Source: a virus
Lineage: Duplodnaviria > Heunggongvirae > Uroviricota > Caudoviricetes
Strand: one strand, 5' to 3'
DNA length: 35,739 nucleotides
Virus record (IMG/VR): IMGVR_UViG_3300022758_000287
Under the pieces are notes generated by a model. That model saw only the letters and a program-made list of their open reading frames with translations. It was not told the DNA's origin and ran no database searches. Below, piece after piece: positions 13,706 through 29,070 of this stretch. Made by a program: the position numbers and the translations under genes. The stretch's first letter is position 1, and each line of letters starts with the position of its first letter.

Positions 13706-13710
13706 AACGG

Positions 13711-14496
13711 ATGAGTACAGCACTCGCAACGCTGGCAGGGAAGCTGGCTGAACGTGTCGGCATGGATTCTGTCGACCCACAGGAACTGATCACCACTCTT
13801 CGCCAGACGGCATTTAAAGGTGATGCCAGCGATGCGCAGTTCATCGCATTGTTGATCGTCGCCAACCAGTACGGCCTTAATCCGTGGACGAAAGAAATTT
13901 ACGCCTTCCCTGATAAGCAGAACGGCATTGTTCCGGTGGTGGGCGTTGATGGCTGGTCCCGCATCATCAATGAAAACCAGCAGTTTGATGGTATGGACTT
14001 TGAGCAGGACAATGAATCATGTACATGCCGGATTTACCGCAAAGACCGCAATCATCCGATCTGCGTTACCGAGTGGATGGATGAATGCCGCCGCGAACCA
14101 TTCAAAACCCGCGAAGGCAGAGAAATCACGGGGCCGTGGCAGTCGCATCCCAAACGGATGTTACGGCATAAAGCCATGATTCAGTGTGCCCGTCTCGCCT
14201 TCGGATTTGCTGGTATCTATGACAAGGATGAAGCCGAGCGCATTGTCGAAAATACCGCATACACTGCAGAACGTCAGCCGGAACGCGACATCACTCCGGT
14301 TAACGATGAAACCATGCAGGAGATTAACACTCTGCTGATCGCCCTGGATAAAACATGGGATGACGACTTATTGCCGCTCTGTTCCCAGATATTTCGCCGC
14401 GACATTCGCGCATCGTCAGAACTGACACAGGCCGAAGCAGTGAAAGCTCTTGGATTCCTGAAACAGAAAGCCACTGAGCAGAAGGTGGCAGCATGA
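13711..14496 (+). CDS. bet: Bet (Red-beta single-strand annealing protein)
   Basis: 261 aa matching lambda Bet. Confidence 0.95.
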
Positions 14497-15173
14497 CACC
14501 GGACATTATCCTGCAGCGTACCGGGATCGACGTGAGAGCTGTCGAACAGGGGGATGATGCATGGCACAAATTACGGCTCGGCGTCATCACCGCTTCAGAA
14601 GTTCACAACGTGATAGCAAAACCCCGCTCCGGAAAGAAATGGCCTGACATGAAAATGTCCTACTTCCACACCCTGCTTGCTGAGGTTTGCACCGGTGTGG
14701 CTCCGGAAGTTAACGCTAAGGCGCTGGCTTGGGGAAAACAGTACGAGAACGACGCCAGAGCCCTGTTTGAGTTTACTTCCGGCGTGAATGTTACTGAATC
14801 CCCGATCATCTATCGCGACGAAAGTATGCGCACCGCCTGCTCTCCCGATGGTTTATGCAGTGACGGCAACGGCCTTGAGCTGAAATGCCCGTTTACCTCC
14901 CGGGATTTCATGAAGTTCCGGCTCGGTGGTTTCGAGGCCATAAAATCGGCTTACATGGCCCAGGTGCAGTACAGCATGTGGGTGACGCGAAAAGATGCCT
15001 GGTACTTTGCCAACTATGACCCGCGTATGAAGCGTGAAGGACTGCATTATGTCGTGGTTGAGCGGGATGAAAAGTACATGGCGAGTTTTGACGAGATGGT
15101 GCCGGAGTTCATCGAAAAAATGGACGAGGCACTGGCTGAAATTAGTTTTGTATTTGGGGAGCAATGGCGATGA
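14493..15173 (+). CDS. exo: Exo (lambda exonuclease, Red-alpha)
   Basis: 226 aa matching lambda Exo. Confidence 0.95.
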
Positions 15174-15352
15174 CGCATCCTCACGATAATATCCGGGTAG
15201 GCGCGATCACTTTCGTCTACTCCGTTACAAAGCGAGGCTGGGTATTTCCCGGCCTTTCTGTTATCAGAAATCCACTGAAAGCACAGCGGCTGGCTGAGAA
15301 GATAAATAATAAACGGGAGGCGGTATGCACAAAGCATCTCCTGTTGAGTTAA
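15164..15352 (+). CDS. Lambda orf60a-like small protein
   Basis: [31 protein letters not shown]... matches remembered lambda orf60a. Confidence 0.7.
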
Positions 15353-15516
15353 GAACGAGTATTGAGATGGCACATAGCCTTGCTCAAATTGGAGTCAGGT
15401 TTGTGCCAATACCAGTAGAAACAGACGAAGAATTTCATACGTTAGCCACATCCCTTTCACAAAAGCTGGAAATGATGGTGGCGAAAGCAGAAGCAGATGA
15501 GAGAGACCAGGTATGA
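15325..15516 (+). CDS. Lambda orf63-like small protein
   Basis: 63 aa matching remembered lambda orf63. Confidence 0.7.
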   Translation: MHKASPVELRTSIEMAHSLAQIGVRFVPIPVETDEEFHTLATSLSQKLEMMVAKAEADERDQV

Positions 15517-15526
15517 CAACCACTGA

Positions 15527-15808
15527 ATGCATTTTTCTGGCAGCGGGCTTCATATTCTGTGTGCTTATGCTTGCCGACATGGGGCTTGTTCAGTGACACC
15601 TCAGCAAGAAAACGCCCTTCGCAGCATTGCCCGTCAGGCTAATTCTGAAATCAAAAAAGCCAGACAGCAGTTTCCGGATAAAAACGTCGATGACATTTGC
15701 CGTAGCGTACTAAAGAAGCACCGCGAAACGGTAACGCTGATGGGATTCACACCGACTCATTTAAGCCTGGCGATCGGCATGTTAAACGGCGTCTTTAAGG
15801 AACGGTGA
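15527..15808 (+). CDS. Hypothetical ea-region protein (start uncertain)
   Basis: ORF in the ea region; overlaps a 27-codon ORF (ATG 15513, MTTTECIFLAAGFIF...) in another frame, so start or frame may be affected by an indel. Confidence 0.4.
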   Translation: MHFSGSGLHILCAYACRHGACSVTPQQENALRSIARQANSEIKKARQQFPDKNVDDICRSVLKKHRETVTLMGFTPTHLSLAIGMLNGVFKER

Positions 15809-15906
15809 ACATGAAAAGCAAAATCATCAGGGAGCTACAGGCTCCTTTTTTATTATTCGCATTCACCCTCAAGCGTATTAACCAACAATTCAGGGATTAA
15901 TGAAAG

Positions 15907-16128
15907 ATGGCGGACATCATTGATTCAGCATCAGAAATTGAAGAATTACAGCGCAATACAGCAATAAAAATGCGTCGTCTGAACTACCAGACTATATCCG
16001 CCACTCATTGTTGTGAGTGTGGCGATCCCATAGATGAACGAAGACGCCTGGTCGTTCAGGGTTGTCGGACTTGTGCAAGTTGCCAGGAGGATCTGGAGCT
16101 TATCAGTAAACAGAGAGGTTCGAAGTGA
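15907..16128 (+). CDS. C4 zinc-finger protein, TraR / DksA family
   Basis: CxxC...CxxC pattern (CCECGDPIDERRRLVVQGCRTCASC) in a 73-aa protein. Confidence 0.7.
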   Translation: MADIIDSASEIEELQRNTAIKMRRLNYQTISATHCCECGDPIDERRRLVVQGCRTCASCQEDLELISKQRGSK

Positions 16129-16889
16129 GCGAAATTAACTATCAGGCACTGCGTGAAGCGGCAGAAAAAGCAACGTGTGGTGAGTGGTCGCTCGAATATG
16201 GAGAGAGCCGATTTGATGGTGATTATGCGCTAATTCATCGTGAAGTTGCTGGATATATTCCCATTTGCAGAATTGAAGGAGCGCATCCAGAAAGCGGTTT
16301 CGATGAAGATTTCCAAATGGAACAGCAGGCCAATGCTGAATTCATCGCCGCAGCCAATCCGGCTACTGTGCTGGCACTGCTGGATGAACGGGAAAGAAAC
16401 CAGCAATACATAAAACGCCGCGACCAGGAGAACGAGGATATTGCTCTTACTGTTGGGAAGCTGAGAGTTGAGCTTGAGGAGACAAAATCAAAACTCAACG
16501 AGCAGCGTGAGTATTACGAAGGTGTTATCTCGGATGGGGGTAAGCGTATTGCTGAACTGGAGAAAAGCGAAGAGCAACTCATTAACGAGCGTGACCATGC
16601 TGAATCTGCTTTAGCAGATATGTACTTTGCAGCAACCGGGGATGAGCCGGAGTGGAGCAACTGGTTCGGCTTTTCAGATGCTGTCGATGCCGTGGTTGAC
16701 AGAATTGCTGATTTAGAAGCTAAACAGCCATCACCAGTAGTACCGGAAGGACTGGTTAAAGCAGTGCGCTTCTATGAACAGGTTAAGCGTGAAAATCCAC
16801 CAGTCGAAACAGAGGCATGGAAAGACGCTATTGACTGGGTGCTCAAAGAGTCTTGTCAGGCTGTAAACATTGATACCAATGGAGATTGA
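16125..16889 (+). CDS. Ead / Ea22-like protein
   Basis: 254 aa acidic coiled-coil protein typical of lambdoid ea regions. Confidence 0.6.
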   Translation: MSEINYQALREAAEKATCGEWSLEYGESRFDGDYALIHREVAGYIPICRIEGAHPESGFDEDFQMEQQANAEFIAAANPATVLALLDERERNQQYIKRRDQENEDIALTVGKLRVELEETKSKLNEQREYYEGVISDGGKRIAELEKSEEQLINERDHAESALADMYFAATGDEPEWSNWFGFSDAVDAVVDRIADLEAKQPSPVVPEGLVKAVRFYEQVKRENPPVETEAWKDAIDWVLKESCQAVNIDTNGD

Positions 16890-16890
16890 T

Positions 16891-17696
16891 ATGAGCACTT
16901 TTACCGACAAAGAACTGATTAAAGAAATCAAAGAGCGTATCAGCAGTTTGGATGTGCGAGACAATGTTGAGCGCCGGGCTTATGAAATTGCTCTGGCATC
17001 GCTGGAAGAGAATCCGGTGGCATGGCTGCATTCAGACAATGGCTTAGGTATTCCGGCAATAACGAGGAGTAAAAACATTGCTGACAGTTGGTTATCAAAG
17101 GGTTGGTATGTTCAGCCGCTATATATGCCAAGCCAGTGCCAGTAGTACCTGAAGAAAAACCAATGCCTAACCCTCTTAGCATGTACGCGGTCGATGCTGT
17201 TGCCGCTATTGCAGAGGTGAGAGGCTGGAACGCCTGCCGCGCGGCTATGCTTCATGCCGGAAACTTTCGGGAAAACGCGAATTCGTCAACCAATAATTTT
17301 CGGGAAATTTCGGAAACGTCAACCAACTCTCCGGTAATTCCTGGTGAGGTGTTGTCCGCAATCCTGAAATTTGCCAGAGTTCGTGCTGATTTCGATGATT
17401 TTGACGGCGACAGGCGAGGTATCGGTGATTGTCTGGATGAGGCTGAGCAAGAGCTTATCGTTACCATTAACAAATATGCCAGTCAGTTGGCAGCAGAACC
17501 GATAGCGACTAATGACGTTCGAGAGCAGCAGACAGCCGTTCCGCCAGTTCCTGTAATACAGGCTGATGTCGCGCAAGCAATTGAAAATCTCAGGCAGAAG
17601 TTAGTGGAATGCAATCGCTATAACTACTGCGCAGATGCAGTTAAGGGCGTAGAGGATGCCTGCCACGCTGCCATGCTTCAGGGAAAAAGAGAGTGA
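16891..17696 (+). CDS. Hypothetical ea-region protein, interrupted by a frameshift near 17120
   Basis: Two consecutive ORFs in different frames join naturally around ...QPLY/AKPVPVV... at a tatatat repeat. Confidence 0.5.
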
Positions 17697-17697
17697 T

Positions 17698-17907
17698 ATG
17701 GCTATTGCCGCAAGTTACACCATGCATCTCTATTGTGATTGTCGCCAGTGTACGGAAGGTGTATATCCAGTGCCAGACTTCGGTGAGTATATCGGTACGT
17801 CATGGTCTGGTTGTGCAAAAGAGGCCCGTAAAGACGGGTGGCGAATAAGCAAAGACAAAACACGTACTTTTGCGCCCGGGCATAAAGTTTTGAGGATTAA
17901 CACATGA
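17698..17907 (+). CDS. Hypothetical small Cys-rich protein
   Basis: 69 aa ORF MAIAASYTMHLYCDCRQCTEG... tightly packed between neighbours. Confidence 0.45.
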   Translation: MAIAASYTMHLYCDCRQCTEGVYPVPDFGEYIGTSWSGCAKEARKDGWRISKDKTRTFAPGHKVLRINT

Positions 17908-18644
17908 CCACTATTACCAAAGAACGTATTGAATTGTTCATTAAAAATCCGCTTGAAAACGGGCTTACTCGTGGCGAACAAATGGAACTAGCACGAATTG
18001 CACTGGCATCACTGGAACGCGAACAGATTCGCCACGAGCATGCCAAATGGTCTGACTCCACATTTGGCTGCGTTGGCCCCATTGGTCCACTGAAACACCT
18101 CTCAAAAGAGGCACTGGAAGCCGCAGCCGAACCAGACGATCTTAGCGAGTGGGCTGATATGCAGTTTCTGTTGTGGGATGCACAGCGCCGTGCTGGCATC
18201 AGCGATGCTGAAATTACCGTTGCTATGGAAGATAAATTGAAGATCAACATGGAGCGCCAGTGGCCTGAGCCAAAAGATGGTGAGCCTCGCTTGCACATTA
18301 AAGAACCCGGCAACTCTCCGGTAATTCCGGATGGTTTATCCACGGTATGCGCTGAGGCTTATCAGGTTGTAGGAGTTATGGCAGATGCGCTTGGTGTATT
18401 CGGTGATGCAGCAGTACAGAAAGTTCTGGATAACCTGTCACAGCAAAAACTTGTTCACAGAGATGTGCTGCCGTTCTCGCTTCCGGTAACTCCGGATGGT
18501 TGGGTTATGGTTCCTAAACAGGTAACGCCGGAAATCAGCAACGCGATAAACGTTGTGGGTCAACGCTGTACATGCGGAAATTGCTCTCAGCGGTTGTGGG
18601 ATTTATTACTCGACGCCACACAGCAAGGAGTTAACCGTGGCTAA
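17904..18644 (+). CDS. Hypothetical ea-region protein, paralogous to the 16891-17696 gene
   Basis: gagga RBS; shares the IALASLE and NSPVIP motifs with the upstream paralog. Confidence 0.6.
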   Translation: MTTITKERIELFIKNPLENGLTRGEQMELARIALASLEREQIRHEHAKWSDSTFGCVGPIGPLKHLSKEALEAAAEPDDLSEWADMQFLLWDAQRRAGISDAEITVAMEDKLKINMERQWPEPKDGEPRLHIKEPGNSPVIPDGLSTVCAEAYQVVGVMADALGVFGDAAVQKVLDNLSQQKLVHRDVLPFSLPVTPDGWVMVPKQVTPEISNAINVVGQRCTCGNCSQRLWDLLLDATQQGVNRG

Positions 18645-18921
18645 CCTGCAACTTGCCGTTAAAGGTGAATACTTCGATGCCATGATTCGCGGAGAGAAAA
18701 CGGAAGAGTATCGCCTGTGTAATGACTACTGGAAAAAGCGCCTCGTTAACCGTAAGCATGACCGCCTGATTATCACAAAGGGATATCCGAAGCGCGACGA
18801 TTCCAGCCGCAGAGTTGATGTTCCGTATGACGGATATGAAGTGAAGACAATCACACATCCGCACTTCGGTGATAAACCGGTAAAGGTATACGCGATAAAG
18901 GTAAATATCGGCACTGAATAA
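18637..18921 (+). CDS. ASCH-domain-like protein
   Basis: GTG start with aaggag RBS; GEKTEEYR motif resembling the ASCH GxKTxExR signature. Confidence 0.5.
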   Translation: MANLQLAVKGEYFDAMIRGEKTEEYRLCNDYWKKRLVNRKHDRLIITKGYPKRDDSSRRVDVPYDGYEVKTITHPHFGDKPVKVYAIKVNIGTE

Positions 18922-18946
18922 CAATCCGCACAACACAAGGTCAAGA

Positions 18947-19186
18947 ATGTTCAGAGTGATTTACCCTAACACCTGGTACGTCGACCACCACGGCACTCCC
19001 TGCAAAATCCTGCGTTCCACTCACAACAAAGTTCACTACATCCGAAAAGGCAGAACATGTATCGCCAGCATGTTCCGCTTTAATCATGACTTTGAACCTG
19101 TGAATAAAGCTGACGCAGATCGGATAGCTGAAGAGATCGAAACAGCAGAACACATTAAGAAGTTACGTGCCATACGCAGGAAATAG
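18947..19186 (+). CDS. Hypothetical protein (79 aa)
   Basis: ORF between the ASCH-like gene and xis; no homolog recognised. Confidence 0.4.
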   Translation: MFRVIYPNTWYVDHHGTPCKILRSTHNKVHYIRKGRTCIASMFRFNHDFEPVNKADADRIAEEIETAEHIKKLRAIRRK

Positions 19187-19325
19187 AAAAATTGATAAAT
19201 TCAATACTGCATTTCTCAGCATTAAATTTATCTCTATGACCAGTCAAGAGATGTACCTGCCATGAGCTTAATATCATGTCAGATATATCGGTCACAAACT
19301 CCCTCAGCAGCTAAGAGGAGGACAA

Positions 19326-19562
19326 ATGTCTCGACTAATCACTTTACAGGACTGGGCTAAAGAAGAATTTGGGGACTTAGCACCAAGTGAGCGAGTTCTG
19401 AAAAAATACGCGCAAGGGAAAATGATGGCCCCACCCGCTATAAAAGTTGGTCGCTACTGGATGATTGACCGAAATTCCCGTTTTGTAGGAACGCTTGCAG
19501 AACCGCAACTCCCAATAAACGCAAACCCAAAACTCCAACGGATAATCGCTGATGGCTGCTAG
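19326..19562 (+). CDS. xis: Excisionase
   Basis: 78 aa with gaggagga RBS, overlapping the int start as in lambda; Xis-like LTLQDWA...PP.K.GR.W pattern. Confidence 0.65.
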   Translation: MSRLITLQDWAKEEFGDLAPSERVLKKYAQGKMMAPPAIKVGRYWMIDRNSRFVGTLAEPQLPINANPKLQRIIADGC

Positions 19563-20694
19563 ACCCCGATCTCACAAAATCTCTATACCCAATTTATATT
19601 GCAAATTAGATAAGCGAACCGGAAAGGTATATTGGCAATACAAACATCCACTATCCGGTCGTTTTCATAGCTTAGGAACTGATGAGAATGAAGCAAAACA
19701 AGTTGCTACTGAAGCAAATACCATTATTGCTGAACAACGTACCCGACAAATATTAAGCGTCAATGAGCGTCTAGAAAGAATGAAAGGCAGGCGCTCAGAC
19801 ATTACGGTGACAGAATGGCTTGATAAATATATTTCTATCCAGGAGGACAGGCTGCAACATAATGAACTAAGACCCAACTCCTATCGGCAAAAAGGCAAAC
19901 CCATTCGTCTTTTCCGTGAGCATTGTGGAATGCAACACCTCAAGGATATTACCGCACTTGATATTGCCGAAATAATTGATGCTGTAAAGGCTGAAGGTCA
20001 TAACAGGATGGCGCAAGTCGTGAGAATGGTGTTGATCGACGTCTTCAAAGAAGCACAACACGCAGGACATGTTCCGCCAGGATTTAACCCAGCGCAGGCA
20101 ACAAAACAACCGCGAAATCGAGTAAACCGCCAAAGATTATCACTGCCCGAATGGCAGGCAATATTTGACAGCGTAAGCAGACGGCAGCCCTATTTAAAAT
20201 GCGGGATGCTACTTGCTCTTGTCACTGGACAACGTTTAGGCGATATCTGCAATTTGAAATTCTCTGATATCTGGGACGACATGTTGCACATTACTCAGGA
20301 AAAAACCGGTTCAAAACTTGCTATTCCGCTTAACCTGAAATGCGATGCTCTGAATATTACCCTTCGTGAAGTTATATCTCAGTGCAGGGATGCTGTTGTT
20401 AGTAAATATCTGGTCCATTACCGTCACACTACCTCTCAAGCAAACAGAGGAGACCAGGTGTCTGCAAATACTCTTACAACGGCTTTTAAAAAGGCCAGGG
20501 AAAAATGTGGCATAAAATGGGAGCCAGGAACTGCGCCCACATTTCATGAGCAGCGATCTCTGTCAGAACGGTTATATCGGGAACAGGGTCTGGATACGCA
20601 AAAGTTGTTAGGTCATAAATCCAGAAAAATGACCGACCGATACAATGATGATCGTGGTAAAGACTGGATTATCGTAGATATCAAAACAGCATAG
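19552..20694 (+). CDS. int: Tyrosine integrase (lambda Int family)
   Basis: 380 aa with C-terminal catalytic region (...HEQRSLSERLY...LLGH...Y) aligning to lambda Int. Confidence 0.9.
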   Translation: MAARPRSHKISIPNLYCKLDKRTGKVYWQYKHPLSGRFHSLGTDENEAKQVATEANTIIAEQRTRQILSVNERLERMKGRRSDITVTEWLDKYISIQEDRLQHNELRPNSYRQKGKPIRLFREHCGMQHLKDITALDIAEIIDAVKAEGHNRMAQVVRMVLIDVFKEAQHAGHVPPGFNPAQATKQPRNRVNRQRLSLPEWQAIFDSVSRRQPYLKCGMLLALVTGQRLGDICNLKFSDIWDDMLHITQEKTGSKLAIPLNLKCDALNITLREVISQCRDAVVSKYLVHYRHTTSQANRGDQVSANTLTTAFKKAREKCGIKWEPGTAPTFHEQRSLSERLYREQGLDTQKLLGHKSRKMTDRYNDDRGKDWIIVDIKTA

Positions 20695-20703
20695 AAAATA
20701 GCC

Positions 20704-20741
20704 AGTTTTGGGGAAGGGTTTTGGGGAAAGTTTTGGGGAAG
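20704..20741 (+). repeat. Three tandem GTTTTGGGGAA(G/A) repeats; candidate Int arm-type binding sites
   Basis: agttttggggaag, ggttttggggaaa, gttttggggaag in direct tandem just after the int stop. Confidence 0.5.
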
Positions 20742-20751
20742 ATTTTACATC

Positions 20752-20784
20752 ATCATAAAACAACGGGCGTGTTATACGCCCGTT
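20752..20784 (-). terminator. Intrinsic terminator 3' of the icd fragment, possibly bidirectional for int
   Basis: Perfect 9-bp stem aacgggcgt / acgcccgtt with loop gttat; U-run on the minus strand. Confidence 0.55.
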
Positions 20785-20807
20785 ACAATATTTAACACAT
20801 GTAGTGA

Positions 20808-20972
20808 TTACATATTCTTGATGATCGCATCACCAAACTCTGAACATTTCAGCAGCTTAGCGCCTTCCATCAGACGTTCGAAGTCATAGGTTACGGTCTT
20901 CGCATTGATTGCGCCTTCCATACCTTTAACAATCAGGTCTGCGGCTTCAGTCCAGCCCATATGGCGCAGCAG
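20808..20972 (-). pseudogene. icd: Phage-borne 3' fragment of isocitrate dehydrogenase (last 54 codons plus stop, 165 nt), containing the attP crossover region
   Basis: Translates to [54 protein letters not shown], matching the Icd C-terminus; homology stops abruptly at 20972. Confidence 0.85.
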
Positions 20973-21091
20973 TATATAAAAATTATGTATTCAACTCGCT
21001 GATATTTAATCATAAATATTATTTTCTTGTCTTTGTATTAGCCAAAATCAACTTTATTCAACCGTTTGATTTCATTGACGTTCGTTTTTAT

Positions 21092-21103
21092 TTTGGGGAA
21101 AGA
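21092..21103 (+). repeat. Fourth copy of the TTTTGGGGAAAG motif on the other side of the icd core
   Basis: ttttggggaaag about 120 bp beyond the icd-homology boundary. Confidence 0.4.
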
Positions 21104-21431
21104 TTTTCTCTACCATTTATATCAAAATTACAAGTCTACATTTTATTAACATCTCAATACATGTGTGGCCTTGCAAGCCATTGCGAGGCCTTATGTGTCT
21201 CAGTTTTGTCCCGCCTTGTATTACGACTTGCATAGCCAATGAAGATAAACGTGACGACAAACAAAGCAGCTGTCTTCTTTTCTTTCACACTTTCCCCACT
21301 CAGCAGCATGCATACCTTCTACTATAACTGTAGTGAATGTCTATTATGAGCGAACTGCGGACATCGTGGAGACAACATGCTGCTGGGTGCGGATATCCCA
21401 TGGCACGTCATATCGCTCGCCGTATTACTTG

Positions 21432-22190
21432 TTATTTTTTTGAAACGAGAAGTTGATACAATTCCTTCAGGGATAAGGCTAATAACTCATTCTTCCTGAT
21501 GAGATCTTTATCAGCGTCTATACCCTCTGCGCATGATTCATTTAAATAGTTCAGTGTTTCCTGATCATCATCCAAGCATTCATAGCTGCCTGAATAAAAT
21601 TCATCGCAACTTGCTTTGTTATTTTTGTCAATGTAACCAATGCATTGAATCACGCCTTTAACAACTTTAGCAGCAGAAAAAACAAAGTAACTGCAGTCAT
21701 TTATATAGCGTTCAATATCAAAAATCATATAAAAATAGTGCATAGAGTGTTTTTCAATTTCAAACTCACTTGAAATCATAGCTATTTCACATTCAAGGTC
21801 TTTCAGACCATCTAACATTATGGAAAGTTTACATTGTTTTTCTTGCACAGTTTCATACTTAAATGACTCTCTCCCCTTTGCCCTGACATTTATTCTTTCT
21901 TCAATTGCATAAATATAAGCAGGATATACACGCGACCACACTTGGTTTATTTTTAGGATTAACCGGCCTCTTTTCAGCCTTTCTTTTGTAGCTATAAATT
22001 CTGCATATAGCGCAGCATCCTCTTCGCACCATACATCAACTTTTCGTTTATAACCCAACTTTAATTCTTTCCCTACGCATTCAGGAAACAAAGGATCAAA
22101 GTCCTTTAAGTATTCAAACTCACTTAGATAGAATCCTGTCTCATAACGATTAAATAATTTCCTAAACTCTTTCCCACTTAAGGTTTTCAT
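21432..22190 (-). CDS. Hypothetical protein (252 aa), AT-rich orphan gene in the b region
   Basis: Long intact ORF, visibly AT-rich, between attP and the sit operon; no homolog recognised. Confidence 0.6.
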   Translation of the reverse strand: MKTLSGKEFRKLFNRYETGFYLSEFEYLKDFDPLFPECVGKELKLGYKRKVDVWCEEDAALYAEFIATKERLKRGRLILKINQVWSRVYPAYIYAIEERINVRAKGRESFKYETVQEKQCKLSIMLDGLKDLECEIAMISSEFEIEKHSMHYFYMIFDIERYINDCSYFVFSAAKVVKGVIQCIGYIDKNNKASCDEFYSGSYECLDDDQETLNYLNESCAEGIDADKDLIRKNELLALSLKELYQLLVSKK

Positions 22191-22793
22191 TGTATCAATC
22201 ACTCTGTTTTCATAAAAGCAAAGTCAACAAGATAAAACAATAAAAACTCTTACACAACCAGCTGATGTTTTTAAAATAGAGGATAATATAAGACAAGCAT
22301 AACCTCGTTCACTTCAATGCTACTCCTATCGTTCTTTTGCGTCACAGAGCGCCTGCCGGACAACTGCATCATAGACCAAACGGAACTGCTTCCGTCGATT
22401 AATCAGATGGCAGCGCATAAACACGCTCAACAACCCGTTTGACTGCTTCAATTTTAAGCTCTTCGGAATAACGCTTACCGTGTAAGTCTCCCTGCAAAAC
22501 GAGCTATCAACTTTTAAGGAGTCTCTGGCCCCCCTGCTTCCGCTCCTGGCACACAGCAGCCCTAGAGACAGTGGAGTAAAGTCATGGAGGCTCGGTGGGG
22601 AGAGGTGCAAATCCTCCCATACAAAAAATACGAAAATCAGTAACGGCTAGAAATCATTCAATACATGCACTCTCGAAATTGCATCAGCCAACCGCAAAAC
22701 GTTATTTCAAAGCCTACTAGCTGCCTTACTTTTTTCCTCAATAACGCGTCGCCAGCCGGAAACAACCTAATCCCTGTTTTGGGCCTCAAAACC

Positions 22794-22812
22794 GCTAATG
22801 ATAATCATTTTC
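22794..22812 (+). promoter_or_regulatory. Fur box upstream of sitA
   Basis: gctaatgataatcattttc matches the Fur consensus gataatgataatcattatc at 17 of 19 positions. Confidence 0.7.
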
Positions 22813-22835
22813 ATTTTGTATAGGTTGTGCTATAA

Positions 22836-22855
22836 AACATAGCCGTTGCTATGTT
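22836..22855 (+). promoter_or_regulatory. MntR box upstream of sitA
   Basis: aacatagccgttgctatgtt, a perfect inverted repeat of the MntR-box type. Confidence 0.65.
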
Positions 22856-22911
22856 TGTTCTAATTTTGCTCACTATAGGTACTAAATTATGCACTCGATA
22901 AAAAAGTAACC

Positions 22912-23802
22912 ATGCTCTTGGGGGGCCTCGCACTCACCTGCTCGATCGCATTTCAGGCAAGTGCAACTGAAAAATTCAAGGTCATTACAACATTTACCAT
23001 CATCGCGGATATGGCCAAAAACGTGGCGGGAGATGCTGCAGAAGTCTCATCCATAACCAAGCCTGGTGCAGAAATTCATGAGTATCAGCCTACCCCTGGC
23101 GATATTAAACGTGCGCAGGGGGCACAACTGATTCTCGCCAATGGTATGAATCTGGAATTGTGGTTCCAACGCTTTTACCAGCATCTCAATGGGGTTCCAG
23201 AAGTAATTGTCTCTTCGGGTGTGACGCCTGTAGGGATCACCGAAGGACCCTATGAGGGCAAACCTAACCCCCATGCATGGATGTCGCCAGATAATGCTCT
23301 GATTTACGTCGATAATATTCGTGATGCGTTGATAAAATACGATCCGGCAAATGCACAAACCTACCAACGCAATGCCGATACTTATAAAGCCAAGATTACC
23401 CAAACCCTTGCCCCCCTGCGTAAGCAGATTACGGAACTCCCTGAGAATCAGCGATGGATGGTCACCAGTGAAGGGGCTTTTTCTTATCTCGCACGCGATT
23501 TGGGGCTAAAAGAGCTTTATCTGTGGCCGATTAATGCCGATCAACAAGGAACACCGCAGCAGGTACGTAAGGTTGTTGATATAGTTAAGAAAAATCATAT
23601 CCCGGCAGTCTTTAGCGAGAGTACGATTTCCGATAAACCAGCGCGTCAGGTTGCGCGTGAAACCGGCGCACACTACGGCGGTGTGCTCTATGTCGATTCC
23701 CTGAGCACAGAAAACGGCCCGGTACCGACGTATATCGACCTTCTTAAGGTTACTACCAGTACGCTGGTACAGGGAATTAAAGCTGGGAAAAGGGAGAAAT
23801 AA
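22912..23802 (+). CDS. sitA: SitA, periplasmic Mn/Fe-binding protein of an ABC transporter
   Basis: 296 aa with signal peptide; first gene of a four-gene ABC operon; an out-of-frame ATG at 22889 suggests the true start may be 8 codons upstream. Confidence 0.85.
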
Positions 23803-24629
23803 TGATGCAATCTGCAGGCATTGTCGTTAATGATGTTACTGTCACCTGGCGTAACGGGCACACAGCACTGCGCGATGCATCCTTCACAGTACCAAGTGGA
23901 TCTATTGCCGCTCTGGTTGGGGTAAACGGTTCCGGAAAATCGACGTTGTTTAAAGCGATTATGGGATTTGTGCGTCTGACCAGCGGAAAGATATCTGTTC
24001 TGGGTATTCCCACGCGACAGGCGTTACAGAAAAACCTGGTTGCCTACGTCCCTCAGTCAGAAGATGTTGACTGGTCATTTCCTGTACTGGTGGAAGATGT
24101 GGTGATGATGGGCCGCTATGGGCATATGGGTATGTTGCGTATCGCCAAAAAGAGGGATCGTCAAATTGTCACCGATGCGCTGGAACGTGTCGATATGGTG
24201 AATTTTCGCCATCGACAAATCGGCGAGCTTTCCGGTGGACAAAAGAAACGCGTCTTTCTGGCGAGAGCGATTGCACAGCAGGGTGATGTGATCCTGCTGG
24301 ATGAACCTTTTACTGGCGTTGATGTGAAAACCGAAGCCAAAATCATCAGCCTGTTGAGGGAGTTACGCGCGGAAGGCAAAACGATGCTTGTCTCAACACA
24401 CAATCTCGGATCCGTCACGACATTTTGCGATTATACGGTCATGGTCAAAGGCACCGTCCTGGCAAGCGGGCCGACAGACACCACTTTTACAGCCGAGAAC
24501 CTAGAGCTGGCTTTTAGCGGCGTACTGCGCCATGTCACACTTAACGGCTCGGAAGAAAGCATTATTACTGACGATGAACGCCCTTTTGTGGCTCATCGAC
24601 CGTCAGCGGTGCAGAGGGAAGAAAGATGA
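23802..24629 (+). CDS. sitB: SitB, ABC transporter ATP-binding protein
   Basis: Walker [10 protein letters not shown], signature LSGGQ, Walker B ILLDEP. Confidence 0.9.
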
Positions 24630-25483
24630 ACGTGCTACTGGAACCCTTCAGCTATGAATATATGCTCAATGCGATGTGGGTCTCGGCGATGGTCGGCGGT
24701 CTCTGCGCTTTCCTGTCATGCTATCTGATGCTAAAAGGCTGGTCGCTGATTGGCGATGCGTTGTCGCACTCTATTGTCCCGGGTGTTGCGGGGGCATATA
24801 TGCTGGGGCTTCCGTTTTCTCTGGGAGCCTTCTTTTCCGGCGGACTGGCTGCGGGCAGCATGCTGTTTCTTAACCAACGCACCCGCTTAAAAGAAGATGC
24901 CATCATCGGTCTGATCTTCTCGTCCTTTTTTGGCCTGGGGCTGTTTATGGTGTCATTGAACCCGACATCTGTGAACATTCAGACCATCGTCCTGGGCAAT
25001 ATTCTGGCAATCGATCCGGCGGATATCCTGCAACTCACTATCATTGGCATTCTCTCGATCATCGTGCTTTTTTTCAAATGGAAAGATCTTATGGTGACCT
25101 TTTTCGACGAGAATCACGCCCGTGCTATTGGATTGCATCCGGGCAGATTAAAACTCATCTTCTTCACCCTGCTGTCGGTTTCGACCGTTGCGGCGCTGCA
25201 AACGGTTGGTGCCTTTCTGGTGATCTGTCTGGTGGTGACTCCCGGTGCAACAGCATGGTTGTTAACCGATCGTTTTCCCCGCCTGCTCATGATTGCTGTA
25301 ACTATTGGCAGTGTAACTAGTTTCCTCGGCGCGTGGGTCAGTTACTTTCTGGACGGCGCGACAGGTGGAATCATCGTGGTGGCGCAGACACTGCTGTTTC
25401 TTTTAGCATTTGTCTTTGCGCCCACCCATGGGCTTTTGGCAAATCGTCGGCGTGCGCATAAGGCGCTGGAGGATCGCTCATGA
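24626..25483 (+). CDS. sitC: SitC, ABC transporter permease
   Basis: 285 aa polytopic membrane protein, overlapping stop/start with sitB. Confidence 0.85.
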
Positions 25484-26337
25484 TGGCATTATTACTGGAG
25501 CCACTGCAGTTCACCTTTATGAGTCACGCACTGCTGATTTCACTGGTAGTTTCCATACCCTGTGCGCTGCTGTCGGTCTTTCTGGTCCTGAAAGGTTGGG
25601 CACTGATGGGTGACGCGATGAGTCATGCGGTTTTTCCTGGAATCGTGCTTGCCTGGATTCTGGGGTTACCTTTGGCTACAGGGGCATTCGTCGCCGGAGT
25701 ATTCTGCGCGGTGGCGACGGGATACCTGAAAGACAACAGCCGAATCAAGCAAGATACAGTGATGGGGATTGTTTTTTCTGGCATGTTTGCCGCAGGTCTG
25801 ATCTTGTATATTGCAGTCAAACCAGACGTACATCTTGACCATATTCTTTTCGGCGACATGCTCGGGATAACCATCGGCGATATAATCCAGACGATGATTA
25901 TTGCCGGGCTGGTTACACTTGTTATTAGCGTAAAATGGCGGGATTTTTTGCTGTTCAGCTTTGATTATCAACAGGCGCAGGTAAGCGGTTTGCATACGAG
26001 ATGGCTGCATTATGGGCTGCTGTGCATGGTCTCTCTGACCATTGTGGCGACGCTGAAAGCGGTAGGTATCATTCTCTCCATTTCTCTGCTCATTGCGCCT
26101 GGCGCCATTGCGGTACTCCTGACACAACGCTTTCATATTGCGCTCCTACTGGCGACTGGCATATCGGTAATAGTGTCAATGACTGGTGTCTGGTTGTCCT
26201 TTTTTATCGACAGCGCACCAGCTCCGACGATTGTCGTCTTATTCGCGGTTTTGTTCATCATGACGTTTGCCGTTACCAGCATCAACGCACGCAAAAAGGG
26301 AAACTCCCATACACAGGATCTGTTATCACCCAATTAG
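25480..26337 (+). CDS. sitD: SitD, ABC transporter permease
   Basis: 285 aa polytopic membrane protein paralogous to SitC. Confidence 0.85.
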   Translation: MMALLLEPLQFTFMSHALLISLVVSIPCALLSVFLVLKGWALMGDAMSHAVFPGIVLAWILGLPLATGAFVAGVFCAVATGYLKDNSRIKQDTVMGIVFSGMFAAGLILYIAVKPDVHLDHILFGDMLGITIGDIIQTMIIAGLVTLVISVKWRDFLLFSFDYQQAQVSGLHTRWLHYGLLCMVSLTIVATLKAVGIILSISLLIAPGAIAVLLTQRFHIALLLATGISVIVSMTGVWLSFFIDSAPAPTIVVLFAVLFIMTFAVTSINARKKGNSHTQDLLSPN

Positions 26338-26428
26338 CACAACATCCGAGGACAGCAACACCCGATACTTTTTCCTGGCTTCCAGCAACGGGGTTTCTTC
26401 CTCCGTTGCATATACAGCTCACCTTTTT

Positions 26429-26722
26429 TCACCCACGATTAACCAACAGCCAGACCAGCAGACACGCCACCACCGGCACAGCAAAATCCATCAGGCTTGC
26501 CACATCCCAAGCTCGCGGATCAAAACCGCCCCACCACGGCATATTCATTCGCTTGCCATGCCCGAACATTTCAATCCAGCGATATTCTGCCTGGGTATGT
26601 TCACGCGCAATGAAGAACGTACAACCGGCTATCGCTCCGTAAGCCCAGTTTCCGGTAAAAAGACCAACCAGTATCTGCGCAGCCACAGCACAAAGCGCAT
26701 GAAGTAAGGGGCTTATATCCAT
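26429..26722 (-). CDS. Small inner-membrane protein (97 aa) at the end of the tail-fibre operon
   Basis: Strong aaggagga RBS; two or three hydrophobic helices; no homolog recognised. Confidence 0.6.
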   Translation of the reverse strand: MDISPLLHALCAVAAQILVGLFTGNWAYGAIAGCTFFIAREHTQAEYRWIEMFGHGKRMNMPWWGGFDPRAWDVASLMDFAVPVVACLLVWLLVNRG

Positions 26723-26734
26723 TATTTCCTCCTT

Positions 26735-27013
26735 TCAGCTCCATTCCCGAAGCGGTGTTTCCAGCTCCACGACATAATCAGAGAATACAGAAACATCAAA
26801 CAAGTCATCAAGAATGCGAATGTTGACAAAATAACCGTCATTCCGGACACAGACAGGTTCTCCCTCTTCTGTTACCCCTGTTTCTGTGTAGGTGAAACCA
26901 ATTTCATCGACTAACAGTTTATTCTGGAGGTCTTCATCCTCCTCCCAGTCAAGAGATGACAGGAAGGCCTTAAACTGCAGTTTGTCATGAAACTTCAAAG
27001 TTAAATCTTTCAT
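26735..27013 (-). CDS. Hypothetical acidic protein (92 aa) translationally coupled to the tail-fibre gene
   Basis: ATGA overlap with the tail-fibre stop; position suggests a fibre assembly or accessory role. Confidence 0.5.
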   Translation of the reverse strand: MKDLTLKFHDKLQFKAFLSSLDWEEDEDLQNKLLVDEIGFTYTETGVTEEGEPVCVRNDGYFVNIRILDDLFDVSVFSDYVVELETPLREWS

Positions 27014-29070
27014 ACGACCTCTTTTAATTGCCTGTCATTTAATTCTTTATGCCATATGCGGAAATTGCGAATATGGCCAAACAGATGTCGTTCTCCAGTA
27101 TTCGTCTGCCCTCCAAATCGGATATTTTTATCAGCGGTCACACCATTATATTCACAATAAACTTCATTAACCGCTTTACCATTTGTCACCACATGAAAGT
27201 GACCATCAGCTTTTGCAATACATCCAAATGTGGTTTTCTCTGCAAATACATCTGTCGCTGCGCTATTAACATACAAGCCTGAAGGGTTTGACAGACTCAT
27301 ATATAACTTACCACTACCTCTGTTGATTGCTGCAATTGCTGATTGCCCGGTATTGGCTGCTGCTATATCCCACACGCGGGGTGCGGCGTTTGGTGCAATA
27401 TCCCAGTTTTTATGAATCTCAAGTAAAAAAGTAAATGGTAACTTATAAAGATTATTTCTGGTGGGGATACTAACCAAATCACTGGCTCTTGTCGTTGCGC
27501 TGCCTCCTGAAATAATAAATGATGATACACACGGCCCATTCTCTACTTGTGGGGTGGCAAGATAAATATAGTCACCAGATACTGTTGCCCCACCCCGCTC
27601 AGGAGAATACTGTATCTGAGAGCCTATTTTTAACTCACCATCAATTGCCTGAATCGTTGCCTCTGCAAAAATCCAGCCTGTGGTCTTATCCTTCCTGACT
27701 CGTGCCGTAATTCTGCCGGCAGCCCCACCTGTCATATTAATTTCAAGCGTTTGCGTATCAATGTACGCATCGCCAAGAAAAGTTGTTGCACTACCATCAT
27801 ACTTATCAAACCGTATACGTAACCTTACCTGTCGTTCTGTTTTAAAACGGCATGAGGTTGTCACGTACTTGTTATCGCCTGAGACATCAACTGACTTTGT
27901 TGCAGCAATTGATGCCATATTAATAGCCGAAGTTTGCCCAACCAGAGAATCGTTGCAGACAAACTTTCCATAAGTAAAACCAAAACTATCTGTCCCGGTT
28001 TCGGGCACATCCATGTTTGATGACTTCCCCCAGCTGGCTGGACTTTCCGAATTGAGCATGTAGTTCGTTCTTTGTCCCTCAATAAGCAGGCCATCACACT
28101 CAAATCGCGGCTCATTAATTTCCGCCGTTTTCAGTTCGCCAGATTTGTTGATATATGTTGCCGTTGATGCGCGACTGAAATTAACCTGTTTATCACTGGC
28201 GACCTGAACCACATCGTCACCAATAGCTATTTTTTTATAGCCCGGAGAAAAACCCGCAATCATATCCAGTGAATCGTTAAACGGTATCCACACATCAGGC
28301 AGCGGCGGCACTATATTCGCATAGGGCTCTGCAGTCACTTCCGCTGCGACTTCTGCGCGGTCTGCCGCCTTTTCAGCCCGTGTCGCTGCCGACAGAGCCT
28401 CATCCTTTTTCTGCCCGGCCTTTGTTGCGTCTGCTGCGGCCTCCCGCGCTTTTGTGGTGGCGACTCCGGCATTTTCAGCGGCTGACTCTGCATTACGGCG
28501 GGAAGCCTCTTCACTGTCTGCGGAGGCTTCTTCTGACGCACGGGCATTTGTCTCTGAACGTTCTGCCGCTGTTGCTGCGTTTTGTGCGGCTGTTTTTGAA
28601 GAAGCTGCCGCTTTCGCGCTGTTACCTGCATTCGTCTCTGATGTTTTCGCCGCATTCCTGGACGATGCCGCTGCTGTTTCTGATTTCTTTGCTGCCGCTG
28701 CGCTCTGAGAGGCGGCTTCAGCGTTGCGTGCCACCTCTTCCACCATCTTTTCAAAACGATACAGTGCCTCCGGACGAACATCATCTTCTGTTGCAGCGCC
28801 CAGAAAATCATTCAATGTCCCCGGCTTAGAATCCTCATACACGGTGATGGCCCCGGCATGTGAAGGCGGAAAACCTTCAACCAGCAGGATAACGCTGTAC
28901 TGGCCATACTCGACATCCATGCTGTAACGTCCGGCTTCATCCGGATTTTCTGAGGCCACCGTGTTCACCACAACCGTGGTGCTGTTACGTTTTGCTTTGA
29001 GCTGAATGGTGCAGTTCTGTATCGGTTTTCCTGCACCGTCTTTCAGCACGCCTGAAATCTGTACTGCCAT
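27010..29070 (-). CDS. Tail fibre protein (lambdoid side-tail-fibre type with Ala-rich central region)
   Basis: N-terminus MAVQISGVLKDGAGKPIQNCTIQLKA... typical of lambdoid tail fibres; long Ala/Ser-rich segment; ggag RBS. Confidence 0.8.
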   Translation of the reverse strand: MAVQISGVLKDGAGKPIQNCTIQLKAKRNSTTVVVNTVASENPDEAGRYSMDVEYGQYSVILLVEGFPPSHAGAITVYEDSKPGTLNDFLGAATEDDVRPEALYRFEKMVEEVARNAEAASQSAAAAKKSETAAASSRNAAKTSETNAGNSAKAAASSKTAAQNAATAAERSETNARASEEASADSEEASRRNAESAAENAGVATTKAREAAADATKAGQKKDEALSAATRAEKAADRAEVAAEVTAEPYANIVPPLPDVWIPFNDSLDMIAGFSPGYKKIAIGDDVVQVASDKQVNFSRASTATYINKSGELKTAEINEPRFECDGLLIEGQRTNYMLNSESPASWGKSSNMDVPETGTDSFGFTYGKFVCNDSLVGQTSAINMASIAATKSVDVSGDNKYVTTSCRFKTERQVRLRIRFDKYDGSATTFLGDAYIDTQTLEINMTGGAAGRITARVRKDKTTGWIFAEATIQAIDGELKIGSQIQYSPERGGATVSGDYIYLATPQVENGPCVSSFIISGGSATTRASDLVSIPTRNNLYKLPFTFLLEIHKNWDIAPNAAPRVWDIAAANTGQSAIAAINRGSGKLYMSLSNPSGLYVNSAATDVFAEKTTFGCIAKADGHFHVVTNGKAVNEVYCEYNGVTADKNIRFGGQTNTGERHLFGHIRNFRIWHKELNDRQLKEVV

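What the first reader, a model, noticed from the sequence alone, without database searches (positions are those of the whole stretch)
20704..21103. Complete attP with a phage-borne 165-nt icd 3' end and flanking GTTTTGGGGAA arm repeats; the window is in phage topology, not a prophage junction
Immediately after int, the minus strand encodes exactly the last 54 codons of isocitrate dehydrogenase plus the stop (165 nt) and its terminator hairpin. Homology ends abruptly at 20972 and is followed by phage b-region DNA, not the rest of host icd. This is the arrangement known for phage 21 and e14, which integrate into icd and supply a replacement 3' end. Three tandem GTTTTGGGGAA(G/A) repeats lie on the int side and a fourth copy on the far side, consistent with arm-type Int binding sites. 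Because int, attP, b region and tail genes are contiguous, the sequence represents a phage genome or circular form rather than an integrated prophage.
Basis: partly seen in the sequence, partly recalled or inferred. Interest (0 to 1): 0.6.

Follow-up and report, generated by a model that had tools for sequence, protein, structure and literature searches.

The report
Phage 21-type attP inside icd homology
This is the ordinary, long-known attachment site of a phage 21-like lambdoid phage, which integrates into the host isocitrate dehydrogenase gene and carries a spare copy of the gene's last 53 codons so that the gene stays intact.

Summary

**Source.** The window is a close relative of Escherichia phage ev017, a virion genome. 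Window 19500-23000 is 100% identical to ev017 and 98.9% identical to phage 21 itself. Both attP arms and the core are 100% identical to phage 21.

**icd fragment.** On the minus strand, 20808-20972 encodes the last 53 codons of Icd plus the stop. The 54th codon is CTG rather than ATG, so homology really starts at 20971. The icd terminator follows at 20786-20760.

**Crossover.** Comparing attP with both junctions of a lysogen confines the crossover to the 10 bp TGCTGCGCCA at 20962-20971, the extreme 5' edge of the homology. K-12 e14 gives the same result.

**Repeats.** TTTTGGGGAA occurs exactly four times in 35.7 kb, all within this 400 bp (0.14 expected). GenBank record OL657228 already annotates the three tandem copies as attP subsites.

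**Comparative support.** e14 and 50-odd Int homologues across Enterobacterales share the layout and spacing. They fall into four repeat sequence classes that co-vary with the Int arm-binding domain.

**Caveat.** Tandem prophages at icd produce attP-like junctions in chromosomes, so topology alone does not prove a free phage genome.

Novelty: already known. Interest is low.

The parts
19326..19562 (+). xis (excisionase), overlapping the start of int
   Evidence: PF07825 Exc E=6.7e-6. phrog_629 excisionase E=5e-36. Annotated as excisionase in phage 21.
19552..20694 (+). int: lambda-family heterobivalent tyrosine integrase, 380 aa
   Evidence: PF09003 arm-DNA-binding domain at residues 1-71, E=1.8e-28, and PF00589 catalytic domain. 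Aligns full-length to lambda Int structures 1z1b/5j0n, E~1e-55. 98.9% identical to phage 21 Int and 60% to K-12 IntE.
20704..21103 (.). whole attP (P arm, core, P' arm); 397 bp between the outermost repeats
   Evidence: From my memory of Wang et al. 1997 (paper not held), the minimal attP measured in vitro was 366-418 bp, which this span fits.
20705..20741 (-). three tandem arm-type Int sites on the int-proximal (P') arm. On the minus strand they read YYTTCCCCAAAAC: 20730-20741, 20718-20729, 20705-20716
   Evidence: Exact repeats. Annotated as attP subsites in OL657228. Same position and number in e14, with the sequence TTATCAAAA. Conserved across Enterobacterales and co-varying with the Int N-domain.
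20755..20786 (-). icd rho-independent terminator (stem 20786-20760 plus T run), carried by the phage
   Evidence: Terminator scan and fold. Identical in the host copy downstream of icdC. e14 keeps the hairpin with changed stem bases. A hairpin plus T run lies between the icd stop and the repeats in the loci listed.
20808..20972 (-). icd': phage-borne copy of the last 53 codons of icd plus stop. The 54th codon is CTG, not ATG. Encodes ...LRHMGW...DAIIKNM*
   Evidence: 164 of 165 nt identical to the 3' end of the intact icd in lysogen TUM13773. 155 of 165 to K-12 icdC. 148 of 165 to the e14-derived 3' end of K-12 icd. tblastn E=1e-28.
20962..20971 (-). crossover (core/overlap) interval, TGCTGCGCCA on the minus strand
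   Evidence: In lysogen TUM13773, the icd-int junction carries host A then phage T, and the b-region / icd-fragment junction carries phage C then host C, at the bases flanking this 10-mer (20972 and 20961). The same interval follows from K-12 e14. The homology boundary is at the same nucleotides in Proteus and Providencia.
20992..21004 (-). IHF-like site next to the core (TATCAGCGAGTTG, one mismatch to WATCAANNNNTTR)
   Evidence: By eye, similar sequences sit at about the same offset in e14 (TGTCAGATAGTTA) and Providencia L034 (AATCAGAGTGTTA) in the output. Weak evidence.
21059..21071 (-). IHF consensus site (AATCAAACGGTTG, perfect match) in the P arm
   Evidence: One site is not significant by count alone (3 in the window, 1.9 expected). 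However, a perfect consensus lies at -100/-101 from the core in all five independent P arms examined, whose other sequence has diverged.
21090..21101 (-). single arm-type Int site of the P arm (ATTTTGGGGAAA on +; TTTCCCCAAAAT on -)
   Evidence: It starts 129 nt upstream of the core interval. The e14 copy starts at -128, and the Proteus and Providencia copies at -128 to -131.
21159..21197 (+). 17-bp stem-loop downstream of int beyond the P arm, just outside attP: sib-like element
   Evidence: It overlaps the first of two CII-consensus sites annotated in OL657228. Campbell describes such a sib-like stem-loop with cII sites downstream of phage 21 int.

Best explanation
This is the complete attP of a phage 21-type lambdoid phage, seen in the unintegrated (POP') configuration.

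**Proposed mechanism.**
- Int is a lambda-family heterobivalent tyrosine recombinase.
- Its N-terminal domain binds four direct arm-type sites (YTTCCCCAAAAY). Three are tandem, next to int (P' arm). One lies about 120 bp beyond the core on the other side (P arm).
- Its core-binding and catalytic domains act at the core, TGCTGCGCCA (20962-20971).
- IHF probably bends the P arm at 21059-21071.
- The bacterial partner is the same 10 bp inside icd, around codons 363-366.
- The crossover is at the extreme 5' edge of a roughly 217-bp stretch copied from the host (53 icd codons, stop, 3' UTR and terminator). Integration therefore joins host icd codons 1-362 to the phage-borne 3' end and terminator, and Icd stays functional.
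- The displaced host 3' end is left as a pseudogene fragment at the far end of the prophage, next to the b region and sitABCD.

**Shown here:** sequence identity to phage 21; the crossover interval; the architecture and its conservation; the co-variation of repeat sequence with the Int N-domain.

**Inferred:** physical Int and IHF binding, and the exact overlap within the 10 bp.
For: **Identity.** Window 19500-23000 is 100% identical to ev017 and 98.9% to phage 21. The window as a whole is collinear with ev017 at 99.5-99.9%. The arms and core are 100% identical to phage 21. The phage 21 record annotates the same repeats, terminator and ICDH pseudogene.

**Integrase.** It has the lambda arm-binding domain PF09003 (E=1.8e-28) and aligns end to end with lambda Int structures.

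**Crossover.** In lysogen TUM13773 the layout is bluR-ycgX-ymgL, icd fragment, b region ... xis, int, full icd, rluE. Diagnostic bases on either side of TGCTGCGCCA switch between phage and host type. K-12 e14 gives the same interval.

**Repeats.** There are 4 exact copies against 0.14 expected, all within 400 bp.

**e14.** Three tandem TTATCAAAA follow the terminator, and one copy starts at -128, with an IHF consensus at -100. These spacings match the window (-129, -100).

**Wider family.** 80 loci from Enterobacterales were fetched. Int homologues of 53-99% identity lie convergent to icd. In 50 loci the gap is 104-173 nt and holds a terminator followed by direct repeats, usually three. The repeats fall into four classes: TCCCCAAAA, TTATCAAAA, CAGTAAAA and CTGCAAAA. 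Each goes with its own Int N-domain signature: KLDKRTGKVYWQ, PLYSRKVNKVYWR, F.DPRTKRVYWQ and SCYTDARTKKVYWR. The single mismatch, L034, is a chimeric int pseudogene: its first ~280 residues are 21-type, its C-terminal ~100 residues are e14-type, and it has an internal stop.

**Tandem arrays.** In the heterotypic tandem array of Proteus columbae, the P-arm site type matches the P' type of the same phage, not that of the neighbouring phage.

**Literature.**: 21 replaces 165 bp of the icd 3' end; 21 and e14 share the site but differ in specificity, with determinants mapped on the phage DNA.
Against: No direct binding or recombination data were generated here, and the key paper (Wang et al. 1997, PMC179457) could not be read.

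The P' sites lie 221-266 bp from the core, much further than I recall for lambda. No IHF consensus with one mismatch or fewer lies in that interval, so how the P' arm is folded back is not explained.

The IHF consensus count in the window is not above chance by itself.

The window is not 100% identical to any phage record over its whole length (99.5-99.9%). Its exact source, and hence its physical state, is not known.
Confidence: 0.95

Rival explanations
1. The junction is not from a free or circular phage genome. It is the internal junction between two tandemly integrated prophages at icd. Such a junction reconstitutes a POP' sequence inside a bacterial chromosome.
For: Two complete E. coli chromosomes (FXCREC028 and FXCREC048) carry int, icd fragment, b region, sitABCD and tail genes contiguously at 99.2% identity. 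Proteus columbae (L018, L050) and Providencia alcalifaciens (L034, L035) carry tandem icd prophages in which int abuts a 55-60 codon icd fragment. A homotypic tandem would be identical in sequence to attP.
Against: Only 2 of 5,426 complete E. coli genomes show it. The window's best matches are virion-derived phage genomes at 99.5-100% identity. The two chromosomal cases are less similar across the junction, at 99.2%. No host DNA occurs anywhere in the 35.7 kb.
Confidence: 0.07
2. The repeats are not integrase arm sites. They serve another role, such as Xis or host-factor sites or transcription signals for int, or they are a chance tandem duplication.
For: No binding assay was done here. The repeats lie directly after the int stop codon, where a 3' regulatory element could also sit.
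Against: A fourth copy lies about 360 bp away, at the same offset from the core in five diverged P arms. Repeat sequence switches in step with the Int N-terminal arm-binding domain across four classes. The only exception is a chimeric pseudogene. The phage 21 annotation and the Campbell laboratory's work assign them to attP.
Confidence: 0.03
3. The icd fragment is an accidental pick-up of host DNA by aberrant excision, as in specialised transduction. It has no role in integration.
For: It is nearly identical to host sequence, and its interior varies between phage isolates like host alleles.
Against: The fragment has the same boundary, at (A/C)TGCT(G/A)CGCCA, in E. coli 21-type phages, e14, Proteus and Providencia. 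The crossover maps to its 5' edge. In lysogens it forms the expressed 3' end of icd.
Confidence: 0.01

Closest known systems
Phage 21 attP / int / xis (GenBank M61865, OL657228; Campbell lab: Schneider thesis 1992, Campbell et al. 1992, Wang et al. 1997 J Bacteriol 179:5705)
   Same: Int is 98.9% identical. Both attP arms and the core are 100% identical. The icd 3' end, terminator, three tandem dodecamers plus one distal copy, b-region ORFs, sitABCD cargo and tail genes are the same.
   Different: There are 12 substitutions, all inside the icd-derived stretch. The early and immunity regions of the window follow ev017 rather than phage 21: ev017 covers window 1-25000 completely, while phage 21 is not among the best hits listed for it.
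e14 cryptic prophage of E. coli K-12 (intE/xisE, icd/icdC)
   Same: It uses the same attB in icd and the same crossover interval. It carries the same 165-nt replacement 3' end plus terminator. The layout matches: three tandem sites after the terminator, one site at -128 and an IHF consensus at -100.
   Different: The arm-site sequence is TTATCAAAA rather than TTCCCCAAAA. Int is only 60% identical, with a different N-domain signature. In K-12, cargo genes (ymfD, ymfE, lit) lie between icd and intE.
Phage lambda attP (P1-H1-P2-X-F-H2-COC'-H'-P'1-P'2-P'3) and lambda Int
   Same: The Int protein is heterobivalent and of the same fold family (35% identity, full-length alignment). As I recall the lambda layout, it shares the three tandem arm sites next to the int 3' end, the distal P-arm site with an adjacent IHF site, xis overlapping int, and a sib-like hairpin beyond the P arm.
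   Different: The target lies inside a protein-coding gene rather than intergenic attB. The P' arm is stretched to about 220-265 bp by the embedded icd 3' end and terminator. Only one clear P-arm site was found. The arm consensus is unrelated to lambda's. attP is about 400 bp, against about 240 bp for lambda (lambda figures are from general knowledge).

Membership tests
Phage 21-type icd-integrating attP/Int module | Lambda-family tyrosine integrase with an N-terminal arm-binding domain, closely related to phage 21 Int | tested here: met
   PF09003 E=1.8e-28 and PF00589 E=7.8e-24. 98.9% identity to phage 21 Int.
Phage 21-type icd-integrating attP/Int module | attP carries a copy of the 3' end of icd (about 165 nt of coding sequence) plus its terminator, next to int and convergent with it | tested here: met
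   icd' at 20808-20972 and the terminator at 20786-20760, 113 nt between the int stop and the icd' stop.
Phage 21-type icd-integrating attP/Int module | Crossover with host icd at the 5' edge of the homology, so that lysogens express a hybrid icd with a phage-derived 3' end | tested here: met
   Comparison of attP with the two junctions of lysogen TUM13773 bounds the exchange to 20962-20971. The lysogen's icd 3' end is 164 of 165 nt identical to the window.
Phage 21-type icd-integrating attP/Int module | Arm-type repeats of consensus YYTTCCCCAAAA on both sides of the core | tested here: met
   Four exact TTCCCCAAAA copies against 0.14 expected. Identical to phage 21, where they are annotated as attP subsites.
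Phage 21-type icd-integrating attP/Int module | Int actually binds the repeats and catalyses attP x attB recombination, with specificity distinct from e14 | not testable with these tools
   Only indirect support: co-variation of repeat class with the Int N-domain, and Campbell's statement about different specificities.
e14 element | e14-type arm sites (TTATCAAAA) and an IntE-type integrase | tested here: not met
   The arm sites here are TTCCCCAAAA. Int is 60% identical to IntE, with a 21-type N-domain signature. It works like e14 but is not e14.
Integrated prophage junction (attL or attR) | Host DNA on one side of the core: full-length icd next to int, or host ymgL/ycgX next to the icd fragment | tested here: not met
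   Phage DNA lies on both sides and no further icd sequence is present. Compare the true junctions.

The most novel reading that the evidence does not exclude
The attP itself is textbook. The least ordinary reading left open comes from the comparative survey. The icd-targeting Int family across Enterobacterales appears to comprise at least four arm-site specificity classes: TCCCCAAAA, TTATCAAAA, CAGTAAAA and CTGCAAAA, with possibly a fifth, CCCTACAAA, in Proteus penneri. All are built on an identical scaffold: the same core, the same spacings and an IHF consensus at -100. Each class is paired with a distinct roughly 12-residue segment of the Int N-domain.

To my knowledge only the 21 versus e14 pair has been studied. 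The other classes would extend it into a natural series for reading out how lambda-type arm-binding domains recognise DNA. They would also help explain how several phages share one attB and stack in tandem without cross-excision.
Probability: 0.35. Interest if true: 0.3.

Novelty: already known. Interest (0 to 1): 0.1.

Why it matters
It matters little as a discovery. The phage 21 / e14 icd system has been a classic example since about 1989-1997 of a phage integrating inside a gene and supplying a replacement 3' end. This window is a near-identical copy.

The check is still useful for annotation. It fixes the attP parts to the nucleotide. It shows that the chromosomal sitABCD locus next to an icd fragment in many E. 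coli is the far end of this prophage family. It also warns that attP-like junctions can occur in chromosomes through tandem lysogeny.

The comparative side-result (four co-varying arm-site / N-domain classes on one scaffold) could be a convenient natural data set for integrase arm-recognition studies.

Tried and rejected
- **Key paper not available.** Wang et al. 1997 could not be read by DOI or PMC id, nor Mehta et al. 2004 on e14. The citation was confirmed only through a reference list. Figures I quote from it (minimal attP 366-418 bp, 209-bp icd homology) are from memory.
- **Rfam.** A scan of 19000-23000 gave only a sub-threshold tpke11 hit (22.6 bits against a gathering score of 43, E=0.14) lying over the terminator hairpin. 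I rejected it as a generic hairpin match.
- **IHF consensus count.** Three sites in the window against 1.9 expected is not significant by itself. Only the positional conservation carries weight.
- **More arm sites.** A search of 20650-21250 with up to 2 mismatches found only TTAGCCAAAA at 21038-21047, in inverted orientation. I did not accept it as a site.
- **IHF site in the P' arm.** None with one mismatch or fewer lies between the core and the P' repeats.
- **sib-like hairpin in relatives.** Only Proteus L050 has a comparable hairpin at a similar offset; e14, L018 and L034 do not.
- **svsR/co293 sRNA.** The NC-SV prophage paper places it at the 3' end of cI, not at att, so it is irrelevant here.
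- **b-region ORF 21432-22202.** No Pfam hit, only a negligible PADLOC hit (E=0.0034), and a PHROG of unknown function.
- **Apparent exception L034.** This locus has a 21-type Int N-domain next to e14-type repeats. It turned out to be a chimeric int pseudogene.

Full report
**What is in the sequence.**

Reading 19200-21900 and listing ORFs gives the following order. xis lies at 19326-19562 (+) and int at 19552-20694 (+). Three tandem dodecamers follow: GTTTTGGGGAAG (20705-20716), GTTTTGGGGAAA (20718-20729) and GTTTTGGGGAAG (20730-20741). Next come a minus-strand hairpin plus T run (20786-20755) and a minus-strand reading frame, 20808-20972, that encodes [54 protein letters not shown]. Beyond that is AT-rich DNA with a further ATTTTGGGGAAA at 21090-21101.

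Further on lie an unknown 256-aa ORF (21432-22202, -) and sitABCD (22912-26337, +). Tail-fibre, J, I, K, L and M-type genes on the minus strand run to the end of the window. Early, replication, Q and lysis genes fill 1-19300. This is the lambda vegetative order (...J, b region, attP, int, xis, early genes...).

**Is it more than chance?**

The 10-mer TTTTGGGGAA occurs exactly four times on both strands of the 35.7-kb window, all within 20706-21100. Dinucleotide-preserving shuffles give a mean of 0.14, and none of 100 reaches four. With one mismatch allowed, the other three hits are scattered and the total is near expectation.

The hairpin meets the terminator criteria, with 11 pairs, 6 of them G-C, and a T run. 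It dominates the local fold. The only significant Icd match in the window is aa 362-416, at 20975-20811, with E=1e-28.

**Identity of the window.**

Window 19500-23000 is 100% identical to Escherichia phage ev017 (LR597643 / NC_049948, 50,126 bp). It is 98.9% identical to phage 21 (OL657228) and to the old phage 21 fragment M61865 (98.7%), whose title is 'Bacteriophage 21 isocitrate dehydrogenase (icd) pseudogene, excisionase (xis), and integrase (int) genes'.

The rest of the window is collinear with ev017, at 99.9% over 1-25000 and 99.5% over 25001-35739. The window is therefore a close relative of ev017 rather than that exact record.

The phage 21 record annotates the same features: 'integration site attP consists of 3 subsites P1P2P3; consensus YYTTCCCCAAAA', a terminator, an 'ICDH-like protein; 99% identical to last 53 AA of ICDH' pseudogene, b-region ORFs and sitABCD. 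That genome was sequenced from purified virions.

A base-by-base alignment of attP with phage 21 shows both arms and the core to be 100% identical. All 12 differences fall inside the icd-derived stretch.

**Extent of the host homology and position of the crossover.**

I aligned the window with K-12 icd joined to e14, and with e14 joined to icdC. I then aligned it with both junctions of an ordinary lysogen, E. coli TUM13773. That lysogen has the layout bluR-ycgX-ymgL, icd fragment, b region ... xis, int, full icd, rluE.

Host-like sequence starts at 20971. The codon at 20970-20972 is CTG where icd has ATG. The host-like sequence runs through the stop codon and terminator to about 20755, some 217 bp in all.

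At the lysogen's icd-int junction, the base before TGCTGCGCCA is host type (A) and the base after is phage type (T, followed by GGC). At the b-region / icd-fragment junction it is the reverse: phage C before, host C after, followed by GGT. The exchange therefore took place within TGCTGCGCCA, window 20962-20971.

e14 in K-12 gives the same interval. The same boundary, (A/C)TGCT(G/A)CGCCA, is seen in Proteus and Providencia.

The lysogen's intact icd is 164 of 165 nt identical to the window's fragment over its last 165 nt. In lysogens, then, the expressed 3' end is the phage's copy.

**The integrase.**

Int carries the lambda arm-DNA-binding domain (PF09003, residues 1-71, E=1.8e-28) and the tyrosine recombinase catalytic domain. 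It aligns from residue 5 to 378 with lambda Int crystal and cryo-EM chains (1z1b, 5j0n; E about 1e-55). It is 35% identical to lambda Int, 60% to K-12 IntE and 98.9% to phage 21 Int. A bivalent Int of this kind requires arm-type sites.

e14 has no TTCCCCAAAA. It does have the same layout with a different word: three tandem TTATCAAAA after the icd terminator, and one copy starting 128 nt upstream of the core. In the window the P-arm copy starts at -129.

A perfect IHF consensus (WATCAANNNNTTR) sits at -100 or -101 in all five independent P arms I could examine: the window, e14, Proteus L018, Proteus L050 and Providencia L034. The surrounding sequence of these arms has diverged.

I then fetched 80 loci encoding Int homologues from one genome per species. 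Int homologues of 53-99% identity lie convergent to icd in Kosakonia, Buttiauxella, Edwardsiella, Proteus, Morganella, Providencia, Pantoea, Erwinia, Xenorhabdus, Pectobacterium, Serratia, Klebsiella and others. In 50 loci the gap between int and the icd stop is 104-173 nt. It consists of a terminator hairpin followed by direct repeats, usually three, with a period of 11-13 nt.

Four repeat classes appear: TCCCCAAAA, TTATCAAAA, CAGTAAAA and CTGCAAAA. Each is paired with its own sequence in the Int N-domain, at residues about 14-30...KLDKRTGKVYWQ......PLYSRKVNKVYWR......F.DPRTKRVYWQ... and ...SCYTDARTKKVYWR....

The one discordant locus, L034, is a chimeric int. Its first ~280 residues are 21-type and its C-terminal ~100 residues are e14-type, it has an internal stop, and it is followed by e14-type repeats. 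It is best explained as a recombinant between neighbouring prophages.

In the heterotypic tandem array of Proteus columbae, the P-arm site beside each icd fragment is of the type belonging to the phage that owns that arm, not to the int on the other side.

This pattern is what arm-type Int sites predict. It is hard to reconcile with any other role.

**Phage topology versus prophage.**

In ordinary lysogens the identical Int protein lies 113 nt from a full 416-aa icd followed by rluE. This holds for all nine long contigs shown, and the protein is indexed in 11,799 blocks of the collection. 1,679 of 5,426 complete E. coli genomes carry the int 3' end plus the repeats. The b-region / icd-fragment junction is also common: all 23 partial matches listed (H3-H25) cover only window 20757-23000, which is that junction.

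Only two chromosomes (FXCREC028 and FXCREC048) show the contiguous int, icd fragment, b region, sit and tail arrangement. Their neighbourhood is that of prophage DNA on both sides, consistent with a tandem lysogen or an assembly join. Proteus and Providencia show clear tandem arrays.

The window is therefore a POP' junction. The best matches being virion genomes make a phage genome the most likely source, but a homotypic tandem lysogen cannot be excluded from the sequence alone.

**Comparison with what is known.**

The system is the one worked out by Hill (e14) and the Campbell laboratory (phage 21). [quoted passage not shown] From my own memory of Wang et al. 1997 (citation confirmed, text not available), the minimal attP was between 366 and 418 bp. 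It included the outermost repeated dodecamers, and the long site was attributed to the embedded 209-bp icd 3' homology. The 397 bp measured here between the outermost repeats fits that range.

Relative to lambda (layout from general knowledge), the layout is the same in kind: three tandem sites next to int, a distal P site with an IHF site, and xis overlapping int. The difference is that the P' arm is stretched to about 220-265 bp by the icd segment, and only one P-arm site is evident.

**Verdict.**

The feature is already known and annotated in GenBank, so interest is low. The only mildly new material is the survey across Enterobacterales showing four co-varying arm-site / N-domain classes on one conserved scaffold.

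Noticed in passing
window 22912-26337 (+): A complete sitABCD iron/manganese ABC transporter is carried as cargo between attP and the tail-fibre genes, as in phage 21. In the 23 chromosomal partial matches listed (H3-H25), sitA sits beside the icd fragment, at the far end of this prophage family.
   Followed up: partly
window 21159-21197 (+), with TTGC-N6-TTGC at 21171-21184 and TTGT-N6-TTGT at 21206-21219: A 17-bp stem-loop (-23.5 kcal/mol for the 55-nt window) lies downstream of int, just beyond the P arm, so integration would separate it from int. The first of two CII-consensus sites annotated in phage 21 lies inside it, and the second follows it. Campbell describes such a sib-like element with cII sites downstream of phage 21 int, whose mechanism was unresolved.
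   Followed up: partly
L009-L087 (about 104-173 nt after int in each locus): There are four classes of tandem arm-type repeats: TCCCCAAAA, TTATCAAAA, CAGTAAAA and CTGCAAAA. They co-vary with residues about 14-30 of the Int arm-binding domain across Enterobacterales, on an otherwise identical icd/terminator scaffold. A possible fifth class (CCCTACAAA) appears in the P arm of Proteus penneri L022.
   Followed up: partly
L018, L050 and L017 (Proteus columbae); L034 and L035 (Providencia alcalifaciens); L006 (E. coli FXCREC028): Tandem prophages are stacked at icd. Heterotypic arrays give hybrid junctions with a 21-type arm on one side and an e14-type arm on the other. In Providencia one int is a chimeric pseudogene: its first ~280 residues are 21-type and its C-terminal ~100 residues are e14-type.
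   Followed up: yes
window 20808-20972 compared with L001, L002, L003 and L004: All 12 differences between this attP and phage 21's lie in the icd-derived segment, while the arms are identical. This suggests the embedded segment exchanges alleles with hosts. The phage-supplied Icd C-terminus ends IIKNM, against IIENM in K-12, so lysogeny changes the enzyme's third-from-last residue.
   Followed up: partly
window 21432-22202 (-): A 256-aa ORF sits in a 36% G+C b-region island. It has no Pfam family and no credible PADLOC hit, only PHROG 20520 of unknown function. It is conserved in phage 21 and in chromosomal copies.
   Followed up: partly
window 21035-21047 and K-12 L003 (about 2340-2350): A short GGCTAAT motif lies about 70 nt upstream of the core in both the 21-type and e14 P arms, although the surrounding sequence differs. 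In the window it overlaps an inverted 8-of-10 match to the arm consensus (TTAGCCAAAA). Its role is unknown; it may be Xis-related.
   Followed up: no
L008 (labelled uncultured Sutterella sp.) and L010 (labelled Vagococcus sp.): Assemblies labelled as non-Enterobacterales carry Enterobacterales-type int-icd junctions: 99% and 82% Int identity, and 95.7% Icd identity in L010. This probably reflects binning or contamination errors in those records.
   Followed up: no
window 17904-18644 (+): The 246-aa ORF upstream of xis corresponds to a gene that carries a PF04447 (dATP/dGTP pyrophosphohydrolase) hit in lysogen contigs with the same Int.
   Followed up: no
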